Shown here piece by piece: positions 1,945 to 57,418 of a stretch of DNA of 64,000 nucleotides (the stretch's first letter is position 1; each line of letters opens with the position of its first letter). Origin of the DNA: Acidobacteriota bacterium (GTDB lineage: Bacteria > Acidobacteriota > Blastocatellia > Pyrinomonadales > Pyrinomonadaceae); NCBI GenBank assembly GCA_046727215.1, contig JBKPCC010000040.1:21637-85636 (forward strand). The letters run 5' to 3'. The translations under genes were made by a program, and so were the position numbers. The notes under the pieces were generated by a model. It saw only the letters and a list, made by a program, of their open reading frames with translations, made no database searches and was not told the origin of the DNA.

Positions 1945-2068
1945 AACATTTTCGATTGCCGATGCCGAATGTCCATTGGTCTGGTGACGAGGCTAAATGG
2001 TTCCTGAAATGTCGGCGATTCATCTGAAAATGTTTTCAAGCGGCAATCGACAATCGGAAATCGGCAAT
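1944..2068. repeat. Imperfect inverted repeats built from GATTGCCGAT / CGGCAATCG words, between livH and livM
   Basis: Left GAACATTTTCGATTGCCGATGCCGAATG. Right GAAAATGTTTTCAAGCGGCAATCGACAATCGGAAATCGGCAAT. Similar GGCAATTGGCAATCGGAAATG words recur at about 53843-53864. Confidence 0.45.
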
Positions 2069-2072
2069 ATTA

Positions 2073-4048: not shown

Positions 4049-4218
4049 CGTTTTTGATTTCTGATTTCTGATTTCGTTTTTTAGTGTCATTTCGTGATGT
4101 GATTTCGTGGATCGTTGATATACGCCAGAAACAGAATCCCCGAAATCAAACGAATAAAGGCGAACAAAGTCTTCGCAAATGACAAATCTCAAATGTCCAA
4201 TGTCCAATGTCAAATAAG
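4049..4218. repeat. Composite intergenic repeat between livG and livF (GATTTC words, family-2 word GTGATTTCGTGGAT, family-3 block)
   Basis: CGTTTTTGATTTCTGATTTCTGATTTCG (4049-4076) is partly complementary to CCAGAAACAGAATCCCCGAAATCAAACG (4125-4152). GTGATTTCGTGGAT lies at 4099-4112. CAAATGACAAATCTCAAATGTCCAATGTCCAATGTCAAAT lies at about 4178-4216. Confidence 0.6.
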
Positions 4219-4243
4219 GTAAATTGTAGTCGCCGCTAATATC

Positions 4244-19149: not shown

Positions 19150-19201
19150 GAGTTAAGATAAGAAGGACATTAACGGGTGGACGTTTGAGAGTGGAGCTGG
19201 G

Positions 19202-19413
19202 GGATTGGAGATTGGAGATTGGATTTTGACATTGGACATTTGAGATTTTTCAATTTCCATTTCTCATTTTTCATTTATGTGTCTAATTTCAGAGGTGCCA
19301 AAGAACCAATAACAGGTGTCAAACAAGTAATGAAAATGGAAAATAGAATTTGAAAAATCTCAAATGTCCAATGTCAAATATCCAATATCTCCAATCTCCA
19401 ATATCCAATCTCC
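19202..19413. repeat. Very long family-3 hairpin (arms of about 75-85 nt) between convergent genes
   Basis: The left arm is GGATTGGAGATTGGAGATTGGATTTTGACATTGGACATTTGAGATTTTTCAATTTCC.... The right arm is its imperfect reverse complement, ending ...CCAATCTCCAATATCCAATCTCC. A 29 nt core (TTTGACATTGGACATTTGAGATTTTTCAA) is exactly complementary between arms. Confidence 0.8.
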
Positions 19414-19440
19414 ACGATCCGAATGCCAATCTTTATTTAG

Positions 19441-20958: not shown

Positions 20959-20977
20959 TTTGCACTGTAGAAGAGAA

Positions 20978-21167
20978 CGATTTGACATTGGACATTTGAG
21001 ATTTGTCATTTGCCATTTGCAATTCTAATCGATCGGGTTTTTTCGTGTGTGTTTGACTGGTGATTTCGTGGATGGGTTATCGGCGCATTGACGATCGATC
21101 CACTAAGCCACACGAAGCGGCAAACAAATGGCCAAATGACAAATGTCAAACATCCAATCTCAAATCG
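20978..21167. repeat. Nested inverted repeat: outer family-3 arms, inner family-2 arms
   Basis: Outer: CGATTTGACATTGGACATTTGAGATTTGTCATTTGCCATTTGC pairs with GCAAACAAATGGCCAAATGACAAATGTCAAACATCCAATCTCAAATCG. Inner: ...GTGATTTCGTGGATGG pairs with GATCCACTAAGCCACACGAAGCGG. The 24 nt at 20981-21004 is identical to 19225-19248. Confidence 0.8.
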
Positions 21168-21189
21168 TTGTTTTCTAGTGGGATGCCAC

Positions 21190-28614: not shown

Positions 28615-29955
28615 ATGGAGCGAGGTGGCGGTAATTTGTTGGAGCCACGTAGCTATTCATTTGGCCGCCGGATAAGTGTGCCTGCAAAGATTCGCTCTCT
28701 GCCACTTGCTCGACTTGCGGCCCTGGGCGAAGCGTTTCTCGTCGCTAGCGGCAGCTTACGGGCCAACAAGCTTCGGACCGCCCTCACGCTAATGGGAATT
28801 GTTGTCGGCGTATCGGCGGTGATTGCCGTTGTAACAATTATCAAAGGCCTCGACAAGACAGTCGCGCAAACATTTTCCTCGCAGGGTTCCACTGTATTCA
28901 CAGTGTCTAAGAACCCACAAATCATTAAATCCCGCGAGGAGTTTATTACCTTTAGCAAACGCAAGGATGTAACACACGAGGATGCTGAGGCCATTTCGCG
29001 CTTGTGTTCCTCGTGTTGGCGCGTCGGTGTGGCGGCAAACGCTGTCGAGACTGTCAAGCATGCCGATCAAAAATCGGAAGGCGTACGCATTAGAGGAGTC
29101 GATCCGACGACGATGTTTGCGATCGACGGTGTCAGTATTGATATCGGCAGAATCTGGACTGAAGCGGAAGGAAGTTCAGGCCATGAGATTTGCGTCATCG
29201 GGCCGGACTTACTGAAGAATCTCTTCGGAGGGGCACCCGCCGATCGCGCAGTCGGTCAGGAAATAAGGATTGCGGGGCGTCCATACACAATCATCGGTGT
29301 GTTAGAACCGCTTGGTTCGATCTTTGGTTTTTCTCGTGACAACGTTGTCTATATCCCGTATTCCACGTATCAGAAATCGTACGGCGCACGACGTTCACTC
29401 GTCGTCTTCGTGCAAGTTCCCACTGCCGAGCAGCTCGAGGCCGCTGAGGATCAGGTGCGGACGATTATGCGTAACCGGCGCGGACGCACTTTCGGGCAGG
29501 AAGGAGACGAAGGATTCGCACTGGAAACGCAGGATGTGTTTCTGAATCTTTATTCGAGTGCAACTTCAAACATTTACATCGTAACCATCGGTGTCGCTGC
29601 GATCTCCCTTGTGGTGGGCGGCATCGTTGTTATGAACATCATGCTCGTATCGGTAACTGAAAGGACCAAGGAGATTGGGATCCGCAAGGCAATAGGCGCT
29701 CGCAGGAAAGACATTCTGACGCAGTTCCTAATTGAGGCAGTGACGGTGACCGCGATTGGAGGGGCCATCGGCGTTATTACTGGTTTCGGTCTCGCTTACA
29801 TCATTTCCGCTTTGATCGGATTCCCGCTCCTGGTCAGCGTCGCGTCAGCAGTTTTGGGAGTCGGTGTTTCATCTGTGGTTGGGATTATCAGTGGTCTTTG
29901 GCCCGCGTGGAGAGCTGCGCGCTTGGATCCGATTGAAGCGTTGAGAGCGGAATGA
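28615..29955 (+). CDS. MacB-type ABC transporter permease (FtsX family), paralogue 1
   Basis: LRANKLRTALT.MGI..GV N-terminal TM, a large periplasmic domain, MNIMLVSVTERTKEIGIRKAIGAR and C-terminal WPAWRAARLDPIEALRAE. AGGAGG RBS precedes the ATG. Confidence 0.88.
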   Translation: MERGGGNLLEPRSYSFGRRISVPAKIRSLPLARLAALGEAFLVASGSLRANKLRTALTLMGIVVGVSAVIAVVTIIKGLDKTVAQTFSSQGSTVFTVSKNPQIIKSREEFITFSKRKDVTHEDAEAISRLCSSCWRVGVAANAVETVKHADQKSEGVRIRGVDPTTMFAIDGVSIDIGRIWTEAEGSSGHEICVIGPDLLKNLFGGAPADRAVGQEIRIAGRPYTIIGVLEPLGSIFGFSRDNVVYIPYSTYQKSYGARRSLVVFVQVPTAEQLEAAEDQVRTIMRNRRGRTFGQEGDEGFALETQDVFLNLYSSATSNIYIVTIGVAAISLVVGGIVVMNIMLVSVTERTKEIGIRKAIGARRKDILTQFLIEAVTVTAIGGAIGVITGFGLAYIISALIGFPLLVSVASAVLGVGVSSVVGIISGLWPAWRAARLDPIEALRAE

Positions 29956-30004
29956 GCGGATTGTCGATTGCCTGTGGGATTTAGAGAATTTAGAGATCAA
30001 CCCC

Positions 30005-31246
30005 ATGCGTCTTGAAGACATAAAAGAATCGGCCTTAATGGCCGTGGATACGTTGCGGGCAAACAAGCTGCGCTCGTCATTGACGATCCTCGGTGTGTCT
30101 GTCGGAGTTGTGACCGTCATCTTCATGGTGTCTATCATCCAGGGTCTAAATAAAGCGTTCGCAGATCAGATCGAGTCGCTCGGTTCCAATACAATTTTTG
30201 TCGCAAAGTTTGAACCAAGTTTCGGTAGACCGCCCGGTCCGGAAGAGCTACACCGAAAAGATTTGACGATGGATGACGCAGACGCGCTGAGGCGTGAAGC
30301 CCCATCGATCGTAGGTGTGTCGCCGATCCACCGCATGATTGCGGCGACAATGCGCTACCAGGAAAAGCAGACGGACACCCCGATCCTTTTTGGCGTCACC
30401 CCGTATTATGAATTTGTTCATTCTCAATACGTGGCCAATGGACGCTTCATCACCGACATCGACATGCAGGACCGTTCAAACGTTTGCATTCTCGGCGTCG
30501 ATGTAAAGCGAGCGCTGTTTCCTTACGAAGATCCGCTGGATAAGGAAGTGCGTATCAATGGGAATCCGTTTCGAGTCATAGGTGTGATGGAGCCGCTGGG
30601 GAACTTTTTCGGTCAATCGCGCGACAATTCCATCTTTGTGCCTATCTCAACGTTCGATAAGTATTATCCGGATCGCCCGTTTCCAGAAGTTGTCTTCTTT
30701 ATTATCGTTCGTCCCAAATCTCGTGCTTTCGTGAAATCAGCGATTGATGAGATCACAGACATTCTCCGGCGGCGAAGACGAGTGCCGCCTAACGAGAAGA
30801 ACAACTTTGGAATCTCTTCCCAGGATTCTCTGCTTGACGTTTACAACCAGTTGACCGGCGCTACCGCGCTCGTATTGACTGCGATATCGTTCGTGGCGCT
30901 TATGATCGGCGGCATTGGTGTAATGAATATAATGTTGGTGTCGGTAACAGAGCGAACAAAAGAGATTGGTGTGCGTAAAGCGGTCGGCGCAACGCGGCTG
31001 AATATTCTGTCGCAGTTTTTGATAGAAGCAGTTGTCCTAACAGCGATTGGTGGCCTTGCAGGTCTTGCAGTAGGTGAGCTGGCCAGCTTGCTCATGAACA
31101 AATACTCACCGTTGCCGGCATATGTTCCGCTTTGGGCCATTGGAGTAGGCGTTGGTATCTCAGCAGCCGTCGGCATCGTGTTCGGGTTATGGCCGGCATG
31201 GAAAGCGGCCCGGCTCGATCCTATCGAAGCTCTTCGATGGGAGTAG
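30005..31246 (+). CDS. MacB-type ABC transporter permease (FtsX family), paralogue 2
   Basis: Same architecture and motifs as paralogue 1 (LRANKLRSSLT, MNIMLVSVTERTKEIGVRKAVGAT, WPAWKAARLDPIEALRWE). Confidence 0.88.
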   Translation: MRLEDIKESALMAVDTLRANKLRSSLTILGVSVGVVTVIFMVSIIQGLNKAFADQIESLGSNTIFVAKFEPSFGRPPGPEELHRKDLTMDDADALRREAPSIVGVSPIHRMIAATMRYQEKQTDTPILFGVTPYYEFVHSQYVANGRFITDIDMQDRSNVCILGVDVKRALFPYEDPLDKEVRINGNPFRVIGVMEPLGNFFGQSRDNSIFVPISTFDKYYPDRPFPEVVFFIIVRPKSRAFVKSAIDEITDILRRRRRVPPNEKNNFGISSQDSLLDVYNQLTGATALVLTAISFVALMIGGIGVMNIMLVSVTERTKEIGVRKAVGATRLNILSQFLIEAVVLTAIGGLAGLAVGELASLLMNKYSPLPAYVPLWAIGVGVGISAAVGIVFGLWPAWKAARLDPIEALRWE

Positions 31247-31266
31247 CACTCCAGCACAAAGAAAAA

Positions 31267-31348
31267 ACGTATTGGAGATTGGACATTTGACAATCGCAAT
31301 ACGACTAGAAGCGTATTCGCAAATCTCAAATGGCAAATATCCATCTCC
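31267..31348. repeat. Family-3 hairpin between MacB permease paralogues 2 and 3
   Basis: ACGTATTGGAGATTGGACATTTGACAATCGCAATACG pairs with CGTATTCGCAAATCTCAAATGGCAAATATCCATCTCC. Confidence 0.6.
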
Positions 31349-31450
31349 TGTGTCCAACGATAGTGACCTTTGTTGGCTCCCTTGAACGCAAACTTGAACT
31401 CCTGGCCTAACTGCAACAATATAGAGAATTACCCCGGTACTAGATTCGCC

Positions 31451-32692
31451 GTGAAGTTTATAGAAACACTCAAACTTGCCCTGGCCGCCATATGGGCGCA
31501 TAAGTTGCGCTCGGCGCTCACTCTCCTTGGCATGATTATCGGTGTGACTGCCTTCGTAGTGGTTGTGTCGTTAATCCAGGGATTTAATAAATACATTGAT
31601 GAAAAGATTGCGGGGATTGGCTCGAAGTCTTTCACCGTCCAGCGTTTCAACTTTGAAGATTTTAAAGATCTCGACACCATTGCGGCCGCCCAGCGACGTA
31701 ATAAGGAACTAACGCTCGACGATTATGAGTATCTGCGCGATCGTGCTGTTCTGATCGACAAGATTGGCGCCAAAGCACGCGCATCACGATCTCAAATTCG
31801 TCGTGAGGCTAAGATCATTGAAGACGTGCCGGTCGATGGTTCAATGCCTGTAATCGCAGAAATCGATAACATCGACGTAGAGGAAGGACGTTACTTCACA
31901 CCCACAGAAAATGACGCTGCCATGCGTGTTGCTTTCATTGGCATGGATGTAGCTAACGCTCTTTTTCCGGCAGGCGCGCATACTGCCATCGGCGAGGAAA
32001 TTAATGTTGCTGGTTTACCATATCGTGTAATCGGAGTTGCCACTGCAAAGGGCACCGTGTTCGGAGTGCCGCAGGATAATTTCGTCACGCTGCCATTAAA
32101 GACCTACGGCAACAACTTTGGCGGGTTTACCCGTAATCGACTTCTCTATTTCGAGGCGACATCCAAAACGGATGAATCATTTTCCGATGCTGTCGAGGAG
32201 GCGCGCTTTTTACTACGGTCGCGTCGTCACCTGCGCGCCGGAGACAAAGACAACTTCGGAATCGTAACGCCGGACGCCATCACAGGCTTCCGTGATCGAC
32301 TATTGGGACCAACGTTTATTGTAGCTATTGCAGTGCCCGGGATCGCCCTACTCGTGGGTGGCATAGTTATAATGAACATAATGCTCGTATCAGTTACGGA
32401 GCGCACAAAAGAGATCGGAATAAGAAAATCTTTGGGCGCGCGTCAGTTGGACATTCTTAAACAGTTTCTCGTGGAAGCCGTTACGCTTGCCGCGATCGGA
32501 GGCTCGATTGGTGTCGGTCTCGCCTGGATTATTGGTCGAATAATGACCGCGGTATTTTTTCCTACCTATCTTTCGATAGTCGCAATCGTGATTACTATCT
32601 TTGTGTCAGGCGGCATCGGGATTGCGGCGGGTGTCTTTCCGGCGTGGAAAGCTGCGCGTTTGGATCCCATTGAAGCTTTGCGTGCGGATTAA
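31451..32692 (+). CDS. MacB-type ABC transporter permease (FtsX family), paralogue 3
   Basis: Same architecture (HKLRSALT, MNIMLVSVTERTKEIGIRKSLGAR, FPAWKAARLDPIEALRAD). The start is uncertain. GTG 31451 was chosen by alignment with the paralogues; the ORF-track start at 31370 lies immediately downstream of a repeat hairpin. Confidence 0.8.
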   Translation: MKFIETLKLALAAIWAHKLRSALTLLGMIIGVTAFVVVVSLIQGFNKYIDEKIAGIGSKSFTVQRFNFEDFKDLDTIAAAQRRNKELTLDDYEYLRDRAVLIDKIGAKARASRSQIRREAKIIEDVPVDGSMPVIAEIDNIDVEEGRYFTPTENDAAMRVAFIGMDVANALFPAGAHTAIGEEINVAGLPYRVIGVATAKGTVFGVPQDNFVTLPLKTYGNNFGGFTRNRLLYFEATSKTDESFSDAVEEARFLLRSRRHLRAGDKDNFGIVTPDAITGFRDRLLGPTFIVAIAVPGIALLVGGIVIMNIMLVSVTERTKEIGIRKSLGARQLDILKQFLVEAVTLAAIGGSIGVGLAWIIGRIMTAVFFPTYLSIVAIVITIFVSGGIGIAAGVFPAWKAARLDPIEALRAD

Positions 32693-32708
32693 GCTGGAGA
32701 GGATCGGC

Positions 32709-33965
32709 ATGAGAATTATTCGCAGCGACATTTACGAGAATCTCAAAATGGCCCTTGCGACACTCAGGAGCAATAAACTCCGTTCGTTTTTGACCGTCGT
32801 GGGTGTGATGATCGGCGTGATCACAGTAATGTTGATTTCTTCCATCATTAGTGGGGTAGATACGGCTGTCAAACGCGAGCTTGAGTCATATGGCACGAAC
32901 TCCATCTACGTAATTAAGTTTAATTCCGGCATCCATATCGGTCGTCTATCGCGCGAAGAAAGGATGCGCAAGGACCTCACCTACGATGACGCAATAGCGC
33001 TGGCCCAATTGCCCGCGATCGAGCTCTCGGTTCCCTTCCTGGACATTTCAAACAACTTTTTCGGCCAAAAGATCCTCGTTACAGGAGGTGGGAAGACTTC
33101 CGCGGCCGTCGCACTTCAGGGAACTCTTCCGGACTTTGAAAAAGCTGGGACACAAATAATTAAGGAAGGACGCTTTTTCTCTCAATACGAAAACGATAGC
33201 AACGAAAACGTGTGCGTAGTCGGTTCAGCAGTGGGGCAGGACTTCTTCCCATACGGTTCACCGGTTGGTCAATCCATCAATATCGCGGGCAATCAGTTTC
33301 GAGTGGTTGGCGTGCTGGAAAAGCGTGAACAGTTCTTATTGGGCGGTGGCGATGACGACCAAAACAATGTGATCTACGTTCCATTTAATGTGGCTCGCAA
33401 GCTGAAACCCAACTCAAGTGACATATACATTCTTGCCGTTGCCAGGAAGGGTCTGATGGACGAAGCGAAGGATCAAGTAACAGATCTCTTGCGGGTCCGG
33501 CGGCAGGTGCCATTTGGGAAACCCGACAATTTTGGCCTTCAAACTGCTGAGCTCTTTTTGAGCAACTTTCGGTCAATTCTGAGCGGCGTTGCTATTGCGA
33601 TGGTCGTTATTTCGTCCGTCGGGTTAATGGTGGGTGGTATAGGCGTCATGAACATCATGCTCGTGTCAGTCACTGAACGTACCCGCGAGATCGGCGTGCG
33701 AAAAGCGATTGGCGCGCGTCGCCGAGACATCATGTGGCAGTTCTTGATCGAAGCTGCCACCTTAACTGGATTCGGAGGTTTAGTTGGCTTGTCGATTGGA
33801 TGGCTGCTGACCTTCTTACTTCGCTTGTTACTGCCTTCCTACGTTCCGCTATGGGCGCCCGTTGGAGGTTTCATCGCCAGTGTTGGCATTGGCCTGGTGT
33901 TTGGTCTATGGCCCGCGTGGAAAGCCGCTCGCCTCGATCCCATCGAATCCCTGCGCTACGAATGA
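32709..33965 (+). CDS. MacB-type ABC transporter permease (FtsX family), paralogue 4
   Basis: Same architecture (LRSNKLRSFLT, MNIMLVSVTERTREIGVRKAIGAR, WPAWKAARLDPIESLRYE). ATG 32709 is preceded by GGAGAGG. The ORF-track start at 32601 would overlap paralogue 3 by 92 nt. Confidence 0.85.
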   Translation: MRIIRSDIYENLKMALATLRSNKLRSFLTVVGVMIGVITVMLISSIISGVDTAVKRELESYGTNSIYVIKFNSGIHIGRLSREERMRKDLTYDDAIALAQLPAIELSVPFLDISNNFFGQKILVTGGGKTSAAVALQGTLPDFEKAGTQIIKEGRFFSQYENDSNENVCVVGSAVGQDFFPYGSPVGQSINIAGNQFRVVGVLEKREQFLLGGGDDDQNNVIYVPFNVARKLKPNSSDIYILAVARKGLMDEAKDQVTDLLRVRRQVPFGKPDNFGLQTAELFLSNFRSILSGVAIAMVVISSVGLMVGGIGVMNIMLVSVTERTREIGVRKAIGARRRDIMWQFLIEAATLTGFGGLVGLSIGWLLTFLLRLLLPSYVPLWAPVGGFIASVGIGLVFGLWPAWKAARLDPIESLRYE

Positions 33966-40261: not shown

Positions 40262-40382
40262 AATTGAGGAAAACTTAGCCGCAGATTAATGCCGATTACG
40301 CAGATCAAGAGCGGAGGTTTTGAAACCGCGTCGCCTGCTAAGGTTTCCTCAATTTTGATCTGCGTCATCCGCGTTAATCTGC
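40262..40382. repeat. Two long interleaved (non-nested) inverted repeats in the divergent mutase/rlmI intergenic region
   Basis: A 40262-40279 AATTGAGGAAAACTTAGC pairs with A' 40337-40354 (17 of 18). B 40281-40308 GCAGATTAATGCCGATTACGCAGATCAA pairs with B' 40355-40382 (25 of 28). The order along the strand is A-B-A'-B'. Confidence 0.75.
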
Positions 40383-40448: not shown

Positions 40449-41612
40449 ATGCCTGAAGCAATAGTAACAAAGCGTGGCGCAGACCGTGTTCGCAACGGAC
40501 ATCTTTGGATTTATCGAAGCGATGTGGTCGACGCATCGGACGTTGCGGGAGGCTCAGTCACAGCCGTGTTGGATCAACACAGGAACTTTGTGGGCCAGGC
40601 GTTTTATAGTGACCGCTCCGAAATCGCGCTGCGGCTGCTGACCAGATCCGACGAAGACATTAACCGCGATTGGTGGTCCGGACGCATCCATCAGGCAGCG
40701 CAACGCCGGCGAGTAATTGCAAAGAACACAAACGCCTATCGCCTCTTCTACTCCGAAGGAGATCTGATTTCCTCTCTGATCATCGATCGATATGACGATG
40801 TGCTTGTTCTACAGACTCTTTCTCAAGGAACTGAGGCGGTAAAGTCGACTTTTGTCGACTTACTCGTCGAACAGTTTAGTCCACGAGCAATTTTTGAAAG
40901 GAATGATGTGCGAGTGCGAGCACTTGAAGGCCTGCCCCTCGTGACGGGCGCGCTCTACGGCGACCCGGTTGACCAGGTTGAGGCGACACAACACGGTTTG
41001 AAACTTATCGTGGCGCCTATGGGAGGGCAGAAGACCGGTTCTTTTCTCGATCAGCGGGAAAACCGGCTTGCAGCGCAGTCGTACGCTCACGGCCGCGCGC
41101 TTGATTGCTTCACTTTCGCAGGTGGTTTTGCTCTTCACTTGTCTCGTGTGTGTGAGCGCGTGCTTGCGATCGATATATCTCCGGAAGCAGTTGCGTGGGC
41201 TCGTCGCAATGCCGAGTTGAATAACATCGCGAATGTCGAATTTCGTGAAGCAAATGTCTTCGACGCGTTGCGCGAATTTGAAGAGGCCGGCGAGAGATTC
41301 GACACCATCGTGCTCGATCCGCCGGCGTTTGCAAAAAATCGCGGCAGCATCAAGCCTGCATTGCGCGGGTACAAGGAGATAAACCTACGCGCACTTAAGC
41401 TCCTCAATCCCGGAGGCATTTTGGTGACGTGCACGTGTTCATATCACGTGTCGGAACAAATGTTTCTCGAAATTATTACCGAAGCGGCGAAAGATGCGCA
41501 TCGAAGGCTGCAGCTTGTGGAGAAGAGAACACAGGCAAGCGATCATCCAATACTCATCGGAGTCCCAGAGACGTATTACTTGAAGTGTGTCATTGCGAGA
41601 GTGATTGAATAA
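40449..41612 (+). CDS. rlmI: Class I SAM-dependent rRNA (cytosine-C5) methyltransferase, RlmI-like (PUA + MTase)
   Basis: N-terminal G.LWIYRSDV (PUA-like). QKTG.FLDQREN, LD.F...GGFALH, VLDPPAFAK and the CSYH motif are typical of the RlmI/RlmK family. The start was set at ATG 40449. Confidence 0.8.
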   Translation: MPEAIVTKRGADRVRNGHLWIYRSDVVDASDVAGGSVTAVLDQHRNFVGQAFYSDRSEIALRLLTRSDEDINRDWWSGRIHQAAQRRRVIAKNTNAYRLFYSEGDLISSLIIDRYDDVLVLQTLSQGTEAVKSTFVDLLVEQFSPRAIFERNDVRVRALEGLPLVTGALYGDPVDQVEATQHGLKLIVAPMGGQKTGSFLDQRENRLAAQSYAHGRALDCFTFAGGFALHLSRVCERVLAIDISPEAVAWARRNAELNNIANVEFREANVFDALREFEEAGERFDTIVLDPPAFAKNRGSIKPALRGYKEINLRALKLLNPGGILVTCTCSYHVSEQMFLEIITEAAKDAHRRLQLVEKRTQASDHPILIGVPETYYLKCVIARVIE

Positions 41613-42111
41613 GGGAGAAAGGGACATAGGGAGAGGGAGAGAGGGAGAGAGAGAGGGAGATGGGAGAGGAAGAGACGGACAATTTGACATTGGAGATTGG
41701 ACATTTCTCATTTGTCATTTAAGAGATTTGTTCGTGTTCGCTTCGTGTGAATTTGTGCACCATTTGTCCTGCTCGCGACAAAGAACCATCACGAAATCAC
41801 GATCCACCAAATCACGTTCCACGAAATCACGTTCCACGAAATCACGTTCCACGAAATCACGATCTGCAAATCACGATCCGGAAATCACGTTTCACGAAAT
41901 CACGATCTGCAAATCACGATCCGGAAAATCACGTTCCACGAATCACTTTTCCATCAAATCTCGTTTCCATGAAATCACGATCTGCAAATCATGATCTGCA
42001 AATCATGCGAACGAACACGAAGAATTGTTCTTAAATGACAAACGACGAATGTCCAATCTCCAATGTCAAATTGGTTTTTTATTTACCGTTTCCCTCTTCT
42101 CTCCTTCCCTC
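41613..42111. repeat. About 500 nt composite nested palindrome filling the convergent rlmI/BNR intergenic region
   Basis: Outer G/A-rich arm 41613-41676 pairs with C/T-rich arm 42088-42111. Family-3 arms 41681-41723 pair with 42030-42072 (25 nt exact). Family-2 arms 41725-41749 pair with 42004-42027. A central tandem array lies between them. Confidence 0.85.
41788..42008 (+). repeat. Tandem array of about 15-16 units of a 14-16 nt motif (ATCACG[A/T]TC[C/T]NC[G/A]AA)
   Basis: Unit starts read off at 41788, 41796, 41811, 41826, 41841, 41856, 41870, 41884, 41899, 41913, 41928, 41942, 41958, 41974, 41988 and 42002. Units are contiguous, with no spacers. Confidence 0.85.
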
Positions 42112-42118
42112 GCAGCTA

Positions 42119-45100
42119 TTAGTTCATCCCCGGATCCGGTTCCAGTACGACCTTCGTCGTATATTCTTTTCCGCCAACTGATACCTTAACGACGTAAGTG
42201 CCGGGATCGAGAGCGGGCCCCTGGTTGAAAAAGCCACCGAAGCCTCCGCCACCGCCACCGCCTCCTTGGCCTCCCCCGCCAAAGCCCTGGAAATTCGGCG
42301 GTCCGGGCGGCACGTCACCACGAAGATTCCACTGCACGCGGTTGATGCCGAGTTCTCTCGTTCCCACAAGGTTCCGAACAATCTTTCCCGCGTAATCCGA
42401 GACTGTGATCTTCACATCGCCTTGCGGAGCCGATTTTAAGTAGTAGCTGATCGCGGTGCCCGGCGCCGGGTTGGCTCCGCGGAACCACTTCGATCCGCCG
42501 GTGTAGCGACTAAGGCGCATATCGTTCATCCAGTTAGTTCCAGGTCGCACATCAAACAGATGAACATCAGCATCTGTGACCTTCGCACTCAGTTGTTGAA
42601 GTGGAGTTATGTCGTCGAGGATGTAGATCCCACGACCATGCGTGCCAACAATCAGATCGTTGTCGCGAGGGTGAACGAGGATGTCATCGATTCGCACTCT
42701 CGGGAGACCTGACATGAACGGCTTCCATTGCGAACCAGCATTTAACGAAACAAACAAACCAATCTCAGTTCCTACATAAAGTAGATCCTTGTTCTTTAGA
42801 TCTTCACGGACCACATTGACGGTACCGACCGTCGGAAGATTGTTGACAATCGATGTCCAGGTTTGGCCGTAATCGCGGGTCACAAACAAATACGGTTTCA
42901 GATCATCTGTGCGATGGCCATCGACCGCGAGGTAACATGCGGCCGCGTCATAGTGAGACGGCTCTACACGGGAAATGTGGTACGTCTCTCCTATACCCGG
43001 CACGTTGTTCGCGACATTGGTCCAAGTCGCTCCTCCGTCGCGACTGAGTTGCACGTTCCCATCGTCCGTGCCAACCCATAACACTCCGGGAAGCTTTGGC
43101 GACTCGGCGATCGTCACGATGTATCCATAGCCTGTGTAACCATCGTTCTTTGAGGCCATCGGATCTTTGCCTGAAACACCCATGATGGAGAGCGTGTTTC
43201 GGTCCAGGTGCTTCGTCAAATCCTGACTGGCAATCCACGTATCACCTCGATCCAACGACCTAAAGAATCGATCGCCTCCAACATACAGAATGCGGGGATT
43301 GTGCGGCGACATTATTAACGGGGTATTCCAATAAAACCGGAACTGCTCGTTCGCAGGAGGTGTCGGTACCACATTCGACGCTAACAACGCAGCAGCTGGT
43401 CCAAAGCCTTGTGCCGCGGCGAATGCAGCTAACGAGTTCGTCTGGTCCTGCGGCGATGCGTCAGGCGAGGCGTTTGGAGACGCAGCGGGTTGAGCCTGCC
43501 TGCCTTGGCCACCACCCTGGTTTCCGCCTCGACGAGGCACACCGCGCGGCCGGATACTGACTCCCCTTCCGGTCCTCAAGTCAATTCGGGTCATCGCGCC
43601 GTTTTGCGATTCCGAGTAGACCGTGTAGGGATCAGTCGGATCGGCCTGAGCGTAGAAGCCATCACCACCACCGACGCGATACCAGTCAGCGTTTGTTATG
43701 CCGTTGGCGTTGCGTGTCTGGCTCGGTCCGCCCCACGATCCGTTATCCTGAAGTCCCCCGTAAACGTAATACGGCTTACGCATGTCCGCAGCGATCGCGT
43801 AAAACTGGGCAGCGGGAATGGTATTGACGAATTCCCAAGTCGCGCCTTCGTCATAACTCACATCCAACCCACCGTCATTTCCGATCATGATGTGGTTGCC
43901 ATTGTTCGGATCGATCCAGATCGCGTGATGATCGCTGTGTGCAATCCCGGGTTGTAAAGACTTGAATGTCTTTCCACCATCAGTTGATTTACTAAAATTG
44001 AGCCCACCCACATAGACATAATCCGGATTCTTCGCGTCAACCCGGATCTGGCTGTAATACATCGGGCGGTTGTTCTCGTTGCTCACAACTCGCCATGTTC
44101 GTCCCTTGTCGTCCGAACGCCACACGCCCGCTTTCTTCGGGTCAGGAGGGGAAGGTCTCGGAGACGCGGCTGGACTTGCAGCTGGCGAGGCACCCGGCGA
44201 CGGTGATGCAGACGGACTTGGACTAGGGCTCGGGTTTGCTGCGCCACCACCAACAACAGGTTCCTCGCCGCCGGTGCCGGTGCTCGCGCCAACTTCTATT
44301 TGGGCGTACACAACGTTGGGATTTGATCTTGAAACGTCCAAGCCGATGCGGCCTAAGAATCCCCCCGGCAAGCCGGCACCTTCGAGTTTTGTCCAGCTCT
44401 TGCCCGCATCCGTGGTCTTCCAGATGCCGCTGCCTGGCCCACCGCCATTGAATCCGAATGAAGTTCTACGGCGCTGGTAAGAGGCGCCGTACAGCGTTTT
44501 GTTATCGCGCGCGTCCATTACGAGATCCGTGAAACCTGTGTCTTCGTCAATGAACTTCACGTTGTTCCAAGTCGTGCCACCATCTGTTGTCTTGTAAACT
44601 CCGCGCTCTTTGTTTGGACCAAAAAGGTGGCCTAGAACTGCGACATAAACAATGTTGGGATCCTTGGGATCGATCAGGATCCGCGAAATCGACTGTGAGT
44701 CGCGCAGTCCCATATTGACGAAGGTCTTTCCGGCATCAGTTGATTTGTATATTCCGTCGCCGAAGCTCGAGCTTTGCCGGTTGTTAGCTTCTCCTGTTCC
44801 AACCCAAACAACGTCCGGATTTGATTGGGACACCGCAATGTCTCCGATTGAACCCGTTGAATAAGTATCGAAGATGGGTTGCCAGGTCGTGCCGTTGTTA
44901 GTCGACTTCCAGACGCCTCCAGTCGCAAAGCCGACATAAATAATGTAGGTATTGCTTTCAACGACAGCGATGTCATCTATGCGCCCGCCCATGCTTGCTG
45001 GGCCAATCCCACGGAACACGAATCTCCTCAACATCGGATCTTCGGACCAATTGATCGGCGTGGGGGTCGGGCTTGGAGAAGGAGTCGGCGACGGGCTTGC

Positions 45101-45232
45101 GGTCGGTGTCGGACTCTGGGTTTGCTCAGCGGTGGGATTCTGCGCATGGCTGGCAATGGTCGCCAGTGCCATGACAGAGATGGCCAGCATTAGCGCGATC
45201 AAGACATAGATAGCACGAGCCTTCTCTTTCAT
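42119..45232 (-). CDS. Secreted sortilin/VPS10-type BNR (Asp-box) repeat beta-propeller protein
   Basis: 1037 aa with a signal peptide. Has many S-x-D-x-G-x-T-W Asp-box repeats (STNNGTTW, STDAGKTF, TTDGGTTW, TTDAGKSW, SDDKGRTW, STDGGKTF, SYDEGATW, SLDRGDTW, SRDGGATW, TRDYGQTW). Also has Pro/Ser/Ala linkers and a Gly-rich C-terminal segment. Confidence 0.8.
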   Translation of the reverse strand: MKEKARAIYVLIALMLAISVMALATIASHAQNPTAEQTQSPTPTASPSPTPSPSPTPTPINWSEDPMLRRFVFRGIGPASMGGRIDDIAVVESNTYIIYVGFATGGVWKSTNNGTTWQPIFDTYSTGSIGDIAVSQSNPDVVWVGTGEANNRQSSSFGDGIYKSTDAGKTFVNMGLRDSQSISRILIDPKDPNIVYVAVLGHLFGPNKERGVYKTTDGGTTWNNVKFIDEDTGFTDLVMDARDNKTLYGASYQRRRTSFGFNGGGPGSGIWKTTDAGKSWTKLEGAGLPGGFLGRIGLDVSRSNPNVVYAQIEVGASTGTGGEEPVVGGGAANPSPSPSPSASPSPGASPAASPAASPRPSPPDPKKAGVWRSDDKGRTWRVVSNENNRPMYYSQIRVDAKNPDYVYVGGLNFSKSTDGGKTFKSLQPGIAHSDHHAIWIDPNNGNHIMIGNDGGLDVSYDEGATWEFVNTIPAAQFYAIAADMRKPYYVYGGLQDNGSWGGPSQTRNANGITNADWYRVGGGDGFYAQADPTDPYTVYSESQNGAMTRIDLRTGRGVSIRPRGVPRRGGNQGGGQGRQAQPAASPNASPDASPQDQTNSLAAFAAAQGFGPAAALLASNVVPTPPANEQFRFYWNTPLIMSPHNPRILYVGGDRFFRSLDRGDTWIASQDLTKHLDRNTLSIMGVSGKDPMASKNDGYTGYGYIVTIAESPKLPGVLWVGTDDGNVQLSRDGGATWTNVANNVPGIGETYHISRVEPSHYDAAACYLAVDGHRTDDLKPYLFVTRDYGQTWTSIVNNLPTVGTVNVVREDLKNKDLLYVGTEIGLFVSLNAGSQWKPFMSGLPRVRIDDILVHPRDNDLIVGTHGRGIYILDDITPLQQLSAKVTDADVHLFDVRPGTNWMNDMRLSRYTGGSKWFRGANPAPGTAISYYLKSAPQGDVKITVSDYAGKIVRNLVGTRELGINRVQWNLRGDVPPGPPNFQGFGGGGQGGGGGGGGFGGFFNQGPALDPGTYVVKVSVGGKEYTTKVVLEPDPGMN

Positions 45233-50518: not shown

Positions 50519-50530
50519 TTCAGTTCAATA

Positions 50531-50675
50531 GGGAAAAAGGGAAAACGGGGAAAAGGGTAACAAGGGTAAAAGGATAATGGTGTCTCAATGTCCCCGCGTC
50601 TCCCCTTTTCCGCGTCCCCGCGTCCCCGCGTCCCCGCGTCTCCCATTCTCCGTGTCCCCCGCGTCTCCGCGTCCC
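50531..50675. repeat. G/A-rich block plus (CGCGTCCC[C])n tandem repeat in the atpD-atpC spacer
   Basis: The plus strand has GGGAAAAAGGGAAAACGGGGAAAAGGGTAACAAGGGTAAAAGG (50531-50574) and TCCCCGCGTCTCCCCTTTTCCGCGTCCCCGCGTCCCCGCGTCCCCGCGTCTCCC... (50591-50675). On the atp mRNA-sense strand the latter reads GGGGACGC repeats. Confidence 0.8.
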
Positions 50676-54128: not shown

Positions 54129-54246
54129 GTGTGTTTACCTTGTAAGGGGTCCTAATCTGCGGATGTTATGGCGCGCGCTGCTATGCTACTTGAGTGCTAC
54201 TGGACGGTCAACCCGGTCGTCCCTGCAAAATCACAACTTTCGTTTC

Positions 54247-54290
54247 GTGTGATTTCGTGGACAGTTTTGTGTGATTTCGTGGATAGTTTT
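54247..54290 (+). repeat. Two tandem 22 nt direct repeats containing the family-2 word, upstream of the peroxiredoxin gene
   Basis: GTGTGATTTCGTGGACAGTTTT (54247-54268) and GTGTGATTTCGTGGATAGTTTT (54269-54290) differ at one position. Confidence 0.75.
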
Positions 54291-54379
54291 GGAGAACTAG
54301 TGTTGCGTTAACTTGAAATCGCTTTTTGTGTAAATTATCTTTACCTAGCATCAAACAAAAACAAAAGGAGGAATTTTTC

Positions 54380-54844
54380 ATGCCTGAAGTGGGGGATCTG
54401 GCCCCGGATTTTGAGCTGCCAAGTAACATGGAGAAAGGAAAAAAAGTGAAGCTTTCCGATTTCCGTGGCAAGAAAAACGTTGTACTCGCTTTTTATCCTT
54501 TAGCGTTCACGCCGGTTTGAACGGCGCAAATGCCTGCGTACGAGGCCGACCTCGAACGCTTCAAAGGCTATGATGCCCAGGTCTTGGGCATATCCGTCGA
54601 TAGCGTCCCCTGCAACACCGCCTGGGCAAAAAGCCTCGGTGGACTTTCATACGATCTGCTTAGCGATTTTCACCCCAAGGGAGAAGTGGCCAAGAAGTAC
54701 GGTGCCTATCGTTCAAATGATGGGATAAGCGAGCGCGCTCTCTTCATCGTGGACAAGGAGGGGAAACTCGCGTACAAGGATATTCACGACATTTCGGATC
54801 AGCCGGATAACGAAGATTTATTTGAAGTTCTACGGAAACTGTAG
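54380..54844 (+). CDS. AhpE-like 1-Cys peroxiredoxin with predicted selenocysteine (UGA at 54518-54520) at the peroxidatic position
   Basis: ORF-track pieces 54326..54520 and 54530..54844 are in the same frame. The joined product (154 aa) reads ...[27 protein letters not shown].... This aligns to the FFPLAFTGIC(Cp)QGE motif of AhpE/AhpC-TSA proteins. AAGGAGG RBS at 54365-54371. A SECIS-like hairpin lies at 54536-54559. Confidence 0.8.
54536..54559 (+). promoter_or_regulatory. SECIS-like hairpin downstream of the peroxiredoxin UGA
   Basis: GCGU-A-CGAGG [CCGA] CCUCG-A-ACGC: 4 bp + 5 bp stem with an A/A internal loop, starting 16 nt after the UGA at 54518-54520. Confidence 0.55.
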
Positions 54845-54908: not shown

Positions 54909-55637
54909 ATGACTATTTTTCGCAAGTGTGTACCTTTCACGCCGTTTGAAGGTGAGCTGTCAAAGGCGACTATCGCAATCGTCTCTGCAGGCGGAGTCCA
55001 TCTGAAACATCAGGAGGCGTTCAATACGAGCGACGAATTGGGCGATCTCGGCTACCGCGTCATACCAGAGGATGTCGATTCAAAACATATAATGGTAACG
55101 CACCACCATTACGACCATTCCGATGCCGACCGGGATATCAATGTGGTTTTTCCGATCGATGTCTTACGGGATCTGGAGAATGAGGGATTCATCGGCGGCA
55201 TTGCCCGCAAACATGTCGGTTACATGGGCTACACTATGCAGCTGAAGGCGATGTATGAGGGAACTGCCCGTGAGATCGCCAATGAAATCGACAAAGGATC
55301 CCGAGCAGATGCCGTGGTGCTGACTGGTGGTTGACCGAGCGTTTGTCACCGCACGGTCGTGGCGGTCCAACGCGAGATCGAAATGAAAGGAATTCCGACA
55401 GTTCTCATTACTGTCAGCCCGGAAGTCTCCGCGCAAATGCGGCCTCCACGAGCGATTTATCCAAATGGCTTTAAAATTGGGAACAGTTTGGGAAAGCCAA
55501 ATGCCCGTGACTTGCAGCGAAAAGTTCTAAGAGATGCGCTCAGCCTGTTGAGGGAAAACACTCGGCCGGGCGCAATCGTGACAAGGGAATATCCGGAATA
55601 CGGAGACTACTTCGAGCCGCCACGGGTTAGGAAGTAA
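54909..55637 (+). CDS. GrdB/PrdB-family (glycine/sarcosine/betaine/D-proline reductase selenoprotein B-like) protein with predicted selenocysteine (UGA at 55332-55334)
   Basis: ORF-track pieces 54909..55334 and 55359..55637 share one frame with no other stop. The joined product reads ...ADAVVLTGG-U-PSVCHRTVVAVQREIEMKGIPTVLIT.... This is the U(C)-x3-C redox motif context, followed by the E..GIPTV motif of the GRDB family. Upstream HHHYDHSDADRDINVVFPID.LR.LE.EG.IG is also family-typical. A SECIS-like hairpin lies at 55348-55366. Confidence 0.75.
55348..55366 (+). promoter_or_regulatory. SECIS-like hairpin downstream of the GrdB-like UGA
   Basis: ACCGC-(A)-C [GGUCGU] G-GCGGU: stem with one bulged A and an apical loop containing GGU, starting 14 nt after the UGA at 55332-55334. 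Confidence 0.5.
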
Positions 55638-55643
55638 ATTCCG

Positions 55644-57255: not shown

Positions 57256-57261
57256 AGACTT

Positions 57262-57418
57262 ATCCACAGATTACACAGATTTAGAAGGTAAAACAGTAGG
57301 CTTGACTTAGCCGACATCAAGAAAGCTGACTTGCTAAAACAGGAACCTCAGCCAAGGGCGATAATTCAAGTTTGCTGCTTTGGACTCTAAATCTGTGTAA
57401 TCTGCGTAATCTGTGGAT
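57262..57418. repeat. Family-1 inverted repeats flanking about 100 nt (MITE-like) between greA and the CDP-alcohol phosphatidyltransferase gene
   Basis: ATCCACAGATTACACAGATTTAG (57262-57284) pairs with CTAAATCTGTGTAATCTGCGTAATCTGTGGAT (57387-57418). The 20 nt ATCCACAGATTACACAGATT is identical to the copies at 15404 and 35253. Confidence 0.8.

What the first reader, a model, noticed from the sequence alone, without database searches (positions are those of the whole stretch)
41613..42111. Roughly 500 nt onion-like nested palindrome with a central 14-16 nt tandem array
The whole convergent spacer between rlmI and the BNR gene is one composite structure. It has a G/A-rich arm against a C/T-rich arm outermost, then family-3 arms (25 nt exactly complementary), then family-2 arms. 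These enclose about 15-16 contiguous copies of ATCACG(A/T)TC(C/T)NC(G/A)AA (41788-42008). The G/A-rich arm contains at least seven GGG tracts spaced 7 nt or less apart, so it has G-quadruplex potential on the plus strand. The two ORFs called across it give periodic peptides (KSRSTKSRST..., NHVPRNHVPR...), which are almost certainly artefacts. The array could be an expansion hot-spot, a protein-binding iteron array or a large structured RNA.
Basis: seen in the sequence. Interest (0 to 1): 0.65.

Follow-up and report, generated by a model that had tools for sequence, protein, structure and literature searches.

The report
Nested palindromic spacer with expanded repeat
The 506-base gap between two converging genes of a soil Pyrinomonadaceae (Acidobacteriota) bacterium is a real nested hairpin built from short repeated "words" that fill most gaps between genes in this genome. 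One inner arm has grown by slippage into a 15-copy array, so it is a striking example of a little-described but conceptually familiar kind of intergenic repeat, most likely a transcript-end hairpin.

Summary
Window 41613-42118 contains a purine-rich tract, a 45-nt inverted repeat (26 nt exact), an inner inverted repeat, and 15 tandem 14-16-nt units at 41788-42008. The whole spacer folds as one hairpin on either strand (z -8 and -10).

It is not a one-off. The arms belong to dispersed word families found in most intergenic gaps of the window, which show a 7-nt periodicity. All six convergent spacers over 100 nt are filled by such palindromes. A 231-nt element at 20959-21189 has the same nesting order without the array.

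Orthologous rlmI/BNR spacers in relatives are 28-202 nt. Each holds one hairpin, often a canonical GC-rich bidirectional terminator, and one is made of the same words as the array.

A 98.5%-identical metagenome strain lacks 33 nt of the purine tract and four array units.

Best reading: a REP/BIME-like mosaic of terminator-type palindromic repeats, with the inner right arm expanded by slippage. The array is a variable by-product, unstructured and C-rich on the rlmI transcript.

Iteron, CRISPR, known RNA family, coding and artefact readings are not supported. No RNA data exist, so function is inferred. The repeat system in Pyrinomonadaceae seems undescribed. Interest is moderate.

The parts
40449..41612 (+). 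Left flanking gene, rlmI-like rRNA methyltransferase. Its stop codon is at 41610-41612.
   Evidence: Pfam PUA_3 and Methyltrans_SAM. Orthologues at up to 76-78% identity in Pyrinomonadaceae MAGs.
41613..41679 (+). G/A-rich tract that begins directly after the rlmI stop. It has seven GGG tracts and a G4 motif starting at 41613. Its length varies between strains.
   Evidence: TRF periods 6, 8 and 14. G4 regex hit and GGG tract positions. L070 lacks 33 nt here. Pairing with 42089-42111 is no better than compositional expectation.
41680..41724 (+).
   Evidence: The same family occurs at 4167-4215, 19190-19420, 20968-21177 and 31260-31357. The 39-nt core 41682-41720 appears in many unrelated metagenome contigs with sharp ends.
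41727..41778 (+). Left arm of the inner hairpin (CGTGATTT word family, 'family 2'). The core is 41728-41740.
   Evidence: 13 nt, 92%. The extended gapped pairing with the right end of the array scores 17, against a shuffle mean of 7.4.
41788..42008 (+). Tandem array of 15 units of 14-16 nt plus one half unit. Unit types are ATCACGTTCCACGAA, ATCACGATCTGCAA and ATCACGATCCGGAA, with a 43-nt higher-order period. It is C-rich and G-poor on the + strand.
   Evidence: The array alone folds at z +1.5 on the + strand and z -2.85 on the - strand. L070 has four fewer units.
42012..42024 (+). Core of the inner hairpin's right arm. The last one or two array units belong to this arm.
42029..42073 (+). Right arm of the 45-nt inverted repeat.
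   Evidence: In other strains 42043 is T, which restores a base pair.
42075..42084 (+). T-run (TTTTTTATTT) directly after the right arm. It reads as an A-run in front of the hairpin on the - strand.
   Evidence: Sequence. Other copies of the arm in metagenome contigs are preceded by A-runs (..AAAAAACC) or followed by T-runs.
42089..42111 (+). C/T-rich tract facing the G/A tract. It ends 7 nt before the BNR stop codon.
42119..45232 (-). Right flanking gene, a Sortilin/BNR repeat protein of 1037 aa, convergent with rlmI.
   Evidence: Pfam Sortilin-Vps10 and BNR. The same convergent pair occurs in 13 related genomes.

Best explanation
The spacer is a mosaic of dispersed intergenic palindromic repeats, comparable to the REP/BIME elements of enterobacteria. 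It sits at the shared 3' end of two convergent genes.

**Shown**
- Its layers are copies of word-periodic repeat families (words of 7-9 nt) that occupy most intergenic gaps of this Pyrinomonadaceae genome.
- The same two layers recur elsewhere in the same order, with the GACATTT family outside and the CGTGATTT family inside.
- Relatives carry a single hairpin, often a canonical bidirectional terminator, at this position.
- The purine tract and the array are the only parts that differ in length between near-identical strains.

**Inferred**
1. The ancestral state was one terminator-type hairpin.
2. Further palindromic modules were added, either by insertion into the loop or by growth in place.
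3. The two-word core (CCACGAAATCACG) of the inner hairpin's right arm was amplified by replication slippage to about 15 copies. The left arm did not follow.
4. The arms act in RNA as a transcript-end structure. On the rlmI side a long hairpin is followed by a U-run, giving termination or 3'-end protection. On the BNR side there is a protective hairpin without a U-run.
5. The array is mostly a neutral, unstable loop. On the rlmI transcript it is an unstructured, C-rich, G-poor stretch of 220 nt.
For: **Anatomy.**

**Dispersed families.**
- Family-3 arms occur at five further places in the window, and family-2 words at 4090-4115, 15440-15525, 21037-21120 and 54242-54291.
- Window intergenic DNA, excluding this spacer, has autocorrelation of 0.35 at lag 7 against a baseline of about 0.25. 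Coding DNA shows only the 3-nt period.
- 20959-21189 is a 231-nt palindrome with the same nesting order and no array.
- Metagenome contigs also show family-3 arms followed by CGTG words (TTCGTGTTCATTTCGTGTGAGT).

**Position.**
- All six convergent spacers over 100 nt in the window are filled by an inverted repeat (scores 20-81) that starts 5-45 nt from the stop codons.
- Over 326 spacers of the window and relatives, strong inverted repeats occur in 34% of convergent spacers against 16% of others (odds ratio 2.8, p 4e-4).

**Orthologous spacers.**
- 13 relatives keep the rlmI -> <- BNR pair with spacers of 28-202 nt.
- Five are A-run/GC-hairpin/T-run terminators (L014, L031, L040, L041, L062).
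- Others are word hairpins.
- L013 is made of ATCCACGAAATACACGAA...TTCGTGTGATTTCGTGGAT, the words of the array.

**Terminator-like flanks.**
- TTTTTTATTT follows the right arm.
- Other copies of the arm are flanked by A-runs or T-runs.

**Arm pairing.** The two arms of one element are more alike (0.93 here, 0.89 at 19223-19380) than arms of different elements (0.62-0.84).

**Instability.** L070 differs by -33 nt and -59 nt, confined to the two repetitive parts. X1 and X4 contigs show further unit differences.

**One-sided expansion elsewhere.** L042 has about 30 GATGCTG units facing about 8 CTAGCAT units after rlmI.

**REP-like placement inside operons.** Elements lie between liv cistrons and between atpD and atpC.
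Against: - There are no RNA data of any kind. No RNA run holds the region. Termination or stabilisation is therefore inferred from position and analogy.
- The consensus terminator scan finds nothing in the spacer.
- The stem is AT-rich and encloses about 300 nt. The - strand has no U-run after the hairpin.
- Similar palindromes also lie in divergent (promoter) spacers, for example 40281-40382, and inside operons. A strong terminator would be harmful there.
- The length differences come from short-read assemblies, which can collapse tandem repeats.
- How the layers were added is not resolved. Insertion and local growth both remain possible.
Confidence: 0.6

Rival explanations
1. Selfish nested mobile elements. 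On this reading each layer is a non-autonomous, MITE- or REPIN-like element moved by a transposase encoded elsewhere. New palindromic elements insert into the loops of resident ones, which produces the onion. The structure has no host function.
For: - The 39-nt core of the arm occurs in many unrelated contexts with sharp boundaries at 41682 and 41720/41721.
- Word families such as AATCTG[CT]GTAATCTGTGGAT and GATCCACGAA(A)TCACACGAA recur at non-orthologous sites in species whose RlmI is only 65-70% identical.
- Stand-alone copies of each layer exist: 19150-19440 for family 3, and 15440-15525, L013 and L118 for family 2.
- Acidobacteria are reported to carry RAYT-like TIRYT transposases with TIR repeat families (PMC3733652).
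Against: - No target-site duplication flanks the arms (sequence).
- No transposase or HUH domain was found among 55 ORFs of the window. The other 99% of the genome was not seen.
- Copies differ by whole-word insertions, deletions and permutations rather than being discrete near-identical units.
- Internal sequences differ between copies.
- This reading does not exclude a co-opted terminator role.
Confidence: 0.3
2. The array is a Rho-loading (rut) platform for the rlmI transcript. On this reading 220 nt of unstructured, C-rich, G-poor RNA with evenly spaced YC dinucleotides recruit Rho before the right arms are transcribed.
For: - The + strand array is 30% C and 13% G.
- It folds less well than shuffles, z +1.5.
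- It lies immediately downstream of a stop codon. Established knowledge of rut sites is that they are regions of C>G skew, unstructured and at least 70-80 nt long.
Against: - Only one strand has this property.
- The comparable expansion in L042 is G-rich on the rlmI strand, so there is no consistent orientation.
- The strain L070 manages with four fewer units.
- There are no RNA or Rho data.
Confidence: 0.1
3. The array is a platform of direct repeats for a DNA- or RNA-binding protein. This would make it an iteron-like array, a nucleoid protein site or a sponge for an RNA-binding protein.
For: - There are 15 regularly spaced, similar units, each with two CACG half-sites.
- The same words are conserved across species.
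- The - strand RNA carries many GGA motifs.
Against: - The 14-15-nt period (7.25 nt for half-sites) is out of phase with the DNA helix.
- No replication, partition or regulator gene is adjacent.
- Copy number differs between near-identical strains.
- Elsewhere the same words occur as hairpin arms, not as arrays.
- There is no match in plasmids.
Confidence: 0.07
4. The spacer encodes a dedicated structured non-coding RNA.
For: The predicted fold is very stable on both strands.
Against: - No Rfam family matches at gathering score or at E<=1.
- No promoter-like site was found.
- Orthologous spacers are 28-202 nt and unrelated in sequence, so nothing beyond 'a hairpin' is conserved.
- The stability comes from simple inverted repeats.
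Confidence: 0.05
5. The array is an assembly artefact, an expanded or chimeric tandem repeat.
For: Tandem arrays with 31-45-nt exact repeats are hard to assemble. Contigs of other samples break or shorten inside the array.
Against: - The arms, the left junction and at least 9 units are reproduced in an independent assembly (L070) and in Logan contigs of at least 5 samples.
- The units are imperfect and ordered, with an A-B-C higher-order pattern, as expected of a real array.
Confidence: 0.04

Closest known systems
REP / BIME (repetitive extragenic palindromes and bacterial interspersed mosaic elements) of Enterobacteria and Pseudomonas; REPINs
   Same: - Both are high-copy imperfect palindromes confined to intergenic DNA.
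- Both are favoured at 3' ends and between convergent genes, and also occur between cistrons of transporter operons.
- Both combine several motif families in alternating orientation into mosaics.
- The proposed roles are the same: termination, attenuation and mRNA 3' protection (PMC3733652 and established knowledge).
   Different: - The arms are not 20-40-nt units with a GTAG or CGTC tag. They are strings of 7-9-nt words, up to 85 nt per arm.
- Copies differ by whole words.
- No RAYT was seen in the window.
- One arm is expanded into a 220-nt tandem array, which BIMEs do not show.
Heptanucleotide tandem repeats: cyanobacterial STRR sequences (own knowledge: Mazel et al. 1990), TAACTGA repeats of Beggiatoaceae (PMC4679880), and the heptamer excess among prokaryotic simple repeats (as summarised in PMC4679880)
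   Same: - Both are intergenic.
- Both have a 7-nt periodicity.
- Both are attributed to polymerase slippage.
- Both are abundant in particular lineages only.
   Different: - Those are direct repeats of one heptamer, mostly upstream of start codons in Beggiatoaceae.
- Here the words are degenerate and arranged as inverted arms forming long hairpins.
- The expanded unit here is a two-word 14-15-mer.
Bidirectional intrinsic terminators between convergent genes
   Same: - The location is directly after both stop codons.
- An A-run, hairpin and T-run arrangement is seen on the right side here and in other copies of the arm.
- Orthologous spacers hold canonical examples.
   Different: - The stem is AT-rich, 45 bp or more, and encloses about 300 nt.
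- There is no U-run for the BNR transcript.
- It is not detected by a consensus scan.
MITEs (e.g. Correia/NEMIS, RUP, Nezha)
   Same: Terminal inverted repeats, a size of 100-600 bp, intergenic location, dispersed copies, and possible effects on transcripts.
   Different: No target-site duplication, no conserved internal sequence, and arm variation at the level of whole words.

Membership tests
REP/BIME | Short imperfect palindromes repeated many times in extragenic DNA | tested here: met
   Family-3 and family-2 arms occur at 5 or more and 4 or more intergenic sites in 64 kb. The core is found in many unrelated metagenome contexts. The whole-genome copy number was not seen.
REP/BIME | Conserved unpaired GTAG or CGTC tetranucleotide at one end (PMC3733652) | tested here: not met
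   Arms start with CAATTTGACATT or ATTTGACATT. A GACG lies 4 nt outside the left arm but is absent in L070 and in the other copies.
REP/BIME | Associated RAYT (Y1/HUH transposase) in the genome | not testable with these tools
   None was found among 55 ORFs of the window. The rest of the genome is not available.
REP/BIME | Mosaic clusters of several motif types in alternating orientation | tested here: met
   There are three nested layers here. The same two inner layers occur in the same order at 20959-21189.
MITE | Terminal inverted repeats | tested here: met
   45 nt, 93% complementary.
MITE | Target-site duplication flanking the TIRs | tested here: not met
   The flanks are GAGACGGA and GTTTTTTA at this element, and TTTGCACTG and GTGGGATGC at 20968-21177. 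No direct repeat is present.
MITE | Copies share the internal sequence | tested here: not met
   The interiors of 19150-19440, 20959-21189 and 41613-42118 differ.
Intrinsic (Rho-independent) terminator | GC-rich stem-loop with a short loop, immediately followed by a U-run | tested here: inconclusive
   A T-run (42075-84) follows the right arm, but the stem is AT-rich with a loop of about 300 nt. The scan finds none in the spacer. There is no U-run on the - strand.
Intrinsic (Rho-independent) terminator | Transcript 3' ends map at the U-run | not testable with these tools
   No RNA run holds the region.
Iteron array (replication origin or plasmid control) | Direct repeats of 17-22 bp in helical phase, next to a rep or dnaA gene and an AT-rich unwinding region | tested here: not met
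   The period is 14-15 nt. The neighbours are rlmI, a BNR protein and methylmalonyl-CoA mutase. There is no plasmid similarity.
CRISPR array | 24-48-nt repeats separated by unique spacers of similar length | tested here: not met
   The units are contiguous and 14-16 nt long, with no spacers.
Heptanucleotide simple repeats (STRR-type) | Tandem direct copies of a 7-nt unit in intergenic DNA | tested here: inconclusive
   A 7-nt periodicity is clear in the arms and in other spacers. The words are degenerate and arranged as inverted arms, and the array unit is 14-15 nt, made of two half units each ending in CACG.
G-quadruplex motif | Four or more G3 tracts with loops of 1-7 nt | tested here: met
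   The first five tracts have loops of 5, 5, 3 and 5 nt. The motif is kept in L070. Folding in vivo is not testable. The window has 4 motifs, against 1.5 in shuffles.
Known RNA families (Rfam 15) | Match to a covariance model | tested here: not met
   There are no hits at gathering score in the window and none at E<=1 in 41500-42250.

The most novel reading that the evidence does not exclude
Some Pyrinomonadaceae may carry a previously undescribed genome-wide system of modular, word-periodic palindromes built from 7-9-nt words. Some word families are conserved across species.

On this reading the elements are generated or moved by dedicated machinery and serve as the lineage's main transcript-end and operon-punctuation signals. 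The periodic arms would allow pairing in several registers.

The elements would evolve by whole-word slippage, so that arrays such as this one are hypervariable loci. These could tune termination, Rho loading or protein binding at the ends of genes.
Probability: 0.2. Interest if true: 0.65.

Novelty: new variant of a known kind. Interest (0 to 1): 0.42.

Why it matters
**For annotation.** Spacers of this kind generate false ORFs with periodic peptides and break short-read assemblies. One contig (L070) ends inside the array.

**For biology.**
- Pyrinomonadaceae are abundant and hard to culture, and nothing is known about how their transcripts end.
- The data suggest that many gene ends, and some operon-internal junctions, are marked by palindromes built from periodic words rather than by classical GC-rich terminators.
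- These palindromes change by whole-word gains and losses.
- If confirmed, this would add a new variant to the REP/BIME and STRR kinds of bacterial repeat. It would also give a set of natural length variants for studying how hairpin size and loop content affect termination.
- The array itself would be a convenient strain marker, of the VNTR type, for this soil lineage.

Tried and rejected
1. **Known RNA families.** Rfam gave nothing at gathering score over the whole window or at E<=1 over the spacer.
2. **Plasmid similarity.** A sensitive (distant-mode) blastn search of the spacer against the plasmid collection (PLSDB) found no match.
3. **Phage origin of the words.** Family-3 words had no match in IMG/VR. 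The family-2 18-mer hit 10 contigs, but all hits lie in coding sequence of one phage group plus one other contig, so they are chance matches.
4. **Exact-protein look-ups to fetch other strains.** RlmI (two alternative starts) and the BNR protein are not on record.
5. **RNA evidence.** No RNA run holds the locus.
6. **Literature.** Searches for Acidobacteria, Blastocatellia or Pyrinomonadaceae intergenic repeats or terminators, and for the motif strings themselves, returned nothing relevant. The motif strings matched only primers in unrelated papers.
7. **Outer G/A versus C/T arms as a true inverted repeat.** Rejected, because the pairing is no better than composition-matched shuffles.
8. **Coding reading of the two ORFs.** Rejected.
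9. **Iteron and CRISPR readings.** Rejected on period and context.
10. **Transposase in the window.** None was found among 55 ORFs.
11. **Promoter inside the spacer.** None was predicted.
Full report
**1. What is there**

The region 41613-42118 is the whole spacer between two convergent genes. On the left is an RlmI-type methyltransferase gene (40449-41612, +; PUA_3 and Methyltrans_SAM). On the right is a 1037-aa Sortilin/BNR-repeat gene (42119-45232, -).

Reading inward, the spacer contains:
- a G/A-rich tract (41613-41679);
- a 45-nt inverted repeat, 93% complementary (41680-41724 against 42029-42073). Of this, 26 nt are exact, and none of 100 shuffles gave a match;
- a second inverted repeat (41728-41740 against 42012-42024). 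With gaps it extends into the last array units, scoring 17 against a shuffle mean of 7.4;
- a tandem array at 41788-42008;
- on the right side, a T-run (42075-42084) and a C/T-rich tract (42089-42111).

TRF reports period 15, 13-14 copies, and a 43-nt higher-order period at 88% matches. Parsed by hand, the array has 15 units of 14-16 nt plus a half unit. There are three unit types, arranged partly as A-B-C blocks. It is by far the largest tandem array in the 64-kb window.

The spacer folds as one nested hairpin on either strand, with z -8.1 and -9.8.

- One of the six loops between the seven GGG tracts is 9 nt. The first five tracts still make a canonical G4 motif.
- The outermost purine/pyrimidine pairing is no better than composition predicts, scoring 16 against shuffles of mean 11.3 and maximum 20.

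The two ORFs across the array give the periodic peptides described and match no protein family.

**2. It is one of many**

The organism is a Pyrinomonadaceae bacterium (Acidobacteriota, Blastocatellia). The best RlmI relatives in species-representative genomes are 76% identical, and all close hits are Pyrinomonadaceae MAGs from soil. The window is ordinary chromosome. It carries arginine biosynthesis, liv and opp ABC transporters, ATP synthase, pfk, greA and similar genes, with no mobile-element gene among 55 ORFs.

Nearly every intergenic gap over about 130 nt in the window is built from short periodic words arranged as inverted arms:
- The CGTGATTT/CACGAAATCAC family (family 2, the words of the array) lies at 4090-4115, 15440-15525, 21037-21120 and 54242-54291.
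- A third family, ATCCACAGATTACACAGATT, lies at six places.

Excluding the finding, the window's intergenic DNA has a base autocorrelation of 0.35 at lag 7, with echoes at 14 and 21, against a baseline of about 0.25. Coding DNA shows only the 3-nt period.

The element at 20959-21189 has the same nesting order as the finding, with family 3 outside and family 2 inside. It is 231 nt long and has no array.

In metagenome contigs the 39-nt core 41682-41720 appears at 93% identity or more in many unrelated contexts with sharp ends. It is often preceded by an A-run (..AAAAAACC), or followed by a T-run on the other strand. In some contigs it is followed by family-2 words.

The two arms of one element resemble each other (0.93 here, 0.89 at 19223-19380) more than they resemble arms of other elements (0.62-0.84). 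Pairing is therefore maintained, or each element arose by inverted duplication.

**3. Comparison with relatives**

Thirteen related genomes keep the rlmI -> <- BNR arrangement. Their spacers are only 28-202 nt, and each holds one hairpin:
- Five are canonical A-run/GC-stem/T-run bidirectional terminators (L014, L031, L040, L041, L062).
- Others are word hairpins: L012 uses CAGATTA words and L017 uses GGCACAAAA words.
- L013 is made of ATCCACGAAATACACGAA ... TTCGTGTGATTTCGTGGAT, the very words of the window's array.

Large composite palindromes after rlmI occur independently elsewhere:
- L042, a long contig, has about 30 GATGCTG heptamers, a loop, then about 8 CTAGCAT. This is a one-sided expansion like the one here.
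- L109 and L110 have a 548-nt spacer of about 97-nt units in both orientations.
- Onion-like palindromes with heptamer arms inside ATCCACAGATTACACAG arms are seen in L147 and L043.

The architecture is patchy in the family. It is strong in this genome and in L036, L042, L043, L048 and L147, and weak in most others.

Over 326 spacers, strong inverted repeats are enriched in convergent spacers: 34% against 16%, odds ratio 2.8, p 4e-4. In the window all six convergent spacers over 100 nt are filled by a palindrome that starts 5-45 nt from the stop codons.

The elements also occur between cistrons of the liv operon (1945-2072, 4049-4243), between atpD and atpC (50519-50675), and in some divergent spacers (40281-40382).

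**4. Variation between strains**

L070 is a contig from a different metagenome and is 98.5% identical over 4.4 kb. It ends inside the array, a typical assembly break.

Over the part it covers, L070 differs from the window as follows:
- a 33-nt deletion inside the G/A tract;
- an in-phase 59-nt deletion of four array units;
- several unit substitutions;
- only 2 substitutions across the ~190 nt between the G/A tract and the first array units.

Because the remaining L070 units also differ in sequence, this is a different allele rather than a simple collapse of the window's array.

Logan contigs from other rhizosphere samples show a 14-nt unit insertion (X4), a missing 15-nt unit plus a 120-nt skip (X1), and a C>T change at 42043 that restores a base pair in the long stem. 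These are k=31 assemblies, so the large skip may be a collapse.

**5. Mechanism**

The best-supported account is this. The site originally held a terminator-type hairpin, as it still does in relatives. In this lineage it is occupied by a mosaic of dispersed palindromic modules. The two-word core of the inner module's right arm was amplified by replication slippage, and the left arm did not follow.

In RNA the arms would form a long hairpin directly after both stop codons:
- For the rlmI transcript the hairpin is followed by UUUUUUAUUU.
- For the BNR transcript it is preceded by an A-run and has no U-run.
- The likely roles are termination or attenuation and protection of the 3' end, as proposed for REP/BIME (PMC3733652).

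The array is the loop:
- On the + strand it is 30% C and 13% G and less structured than shuffles (z +1.5). This is what a Rho-loading site looks like.
- On the - strand it folds on itself through G-U pairs (z -2.85).

Shown: the anatomy, the dispersed families, the context, the contrast with orthologous spacers and the length polymorphism.

Inferred: the termination or stability role, the slippage origin and the order of events.

No RNA data exist for the locus.

**6. Rivals**

- **Selfish mobile elements nesting in each other's loops.** This is compatible with much of the evidence: sharp repeat ends in many contexts, and words shared between species at non-orthologous sites. Against it, there is no target duplication, no conserved interior and no transposase in view.
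- **Iteron or protein-binding array.** Unlikely. The period is out of helical phase, no relevant gene is adjacent, copy number is variable, and the same words elsewhere serve as hairpin arms.
- **Dedicated ncRNA.** Not supported.
- **Assembly artefact.** Excluded for the structure, though not for the exact copy number.

**7. Comparison with known systems and novelty**

Functionally and by placement the closest systems are REP/BIME mosaics and bidirectional intrinsic terminators. By sequence style the closest are heptanucleotide tandem repeats: STRR of cyanobacteria (own knowledge) and the TAACTGA repeats of Beggiatoaceae (PMC4679880).

It is not a member of REP sensu stricto. There is no GTAG or CGTC tag, and the arms are strings of words rather than one 20-40-nt unit. 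It also fails the MITE tests for target duplication and shared interior.

I found no description of these repeats in Acidobacteria in the library searched. PMC3733652 reports RAYT-like TIRYT genes with TIR repeat families in other Acidobacteria.

I rate it a new variant of a known kind, of moderate interest. The individual locus is explained. The genome-wide word-palindrome system behind it deserves a proper census and transcript-end mapping.

Noticed in passing
window 54380-54844 (+): A 154-aa AhpC/TSA peroxiredoxin ORF has an in-frame TGA exactly at the peroxidatic cysteine position (AFTPV-TGA-TAQ). A hairpin lies about 18 nt downstream. This is a candidate selenocysteine peroxiredoxin. There was no Rfam SECIS hit at gathering score.
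   Followed up: partly
window 54909-55640 (+): Adjacent GrdB-family (selenoprotein B-like) ORF with an in-frame TGA (VVLTGG-TGA-PSVCH), followed by about 100 further in-frame codons. This is a second candidate selenoprotein.
   Followed up: partly
window 50519-50675: The atpD-atpC junction inside the ATP synthase operon carries a 157-nt spacer made of (AGGGAAAA)n followed by (GTCCCCGC)n. It has G-quadruplex motifs on both strands.
   Followed up: partly
window 19150-19440: The strongest palindrome in the window. Its arms are about 85 nt of heptamer words (GGAGATT, GACATTT, GAGATTT, CCATTTC) around a 62-nt loop. It fills the convergent spacer between an asparaginase gene and a PhzF-like gene.
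   Followed up: partly
window 20959-21189: A 231-nt nested palindrome with the same layer order as the finding (GACATTT family outside, CGTGATTT family inside) but no tandem expansion. It looks like the unexpanded form.
   Followed up: yes
window 1945-2072 and 4049-4243: Word palindromes sit between cistrons of a branched-chain amino-acid ABC transporter operon (livH/livM and livG/livF-like). This recalls REP elements in the E. coli mal and his operons.
   Followed up: partly
window 15403, 34080, 35247, 35359, 57256, 57389; L019:3950-3990, L074:1-30, L118:2955-2990, L126:1-20, L147:1110-1130 and 1290-1320: A 9-nt word family, (AATCTG[CT]GT)n AATCTGTGGAT, is nearly identical across species whose RlmI is only 65-70% identical. 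It occurs at non-orthologous sites. The end word TGTGGAT(T/A)A resembles a DnaA box (TTATCCACA is perfect at 57260-57268).
   Followed up: partly
L021:1894-2007 and L027 (spacer after rlmI): The same GC-rich palindrome of about 100 nt occupies the orthologous rlmI/BNR spacer in two species, but with the arms exchanged. The element is inverted in one relative to the other.
   Followed up: no
L109:4165-4715, L110:1168-1715, L018:6498-6766: Spacers built of tandem units of about 97 nt, each with an ACCACCGGCTGAAGCCTGGTGGT hairpin. The units are present in both orientations, so the whole spacer is a large palindrome. In L109 and L110 this lies directly after rlmI.
   Followed up: no
window 28615-33965: Four tandem paralogous MacB/FtsX-type permease genes with conserved 3' ends (repeat family D3). 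They follow HlyD-like and ABC ATPase genes.
   Followed up: no
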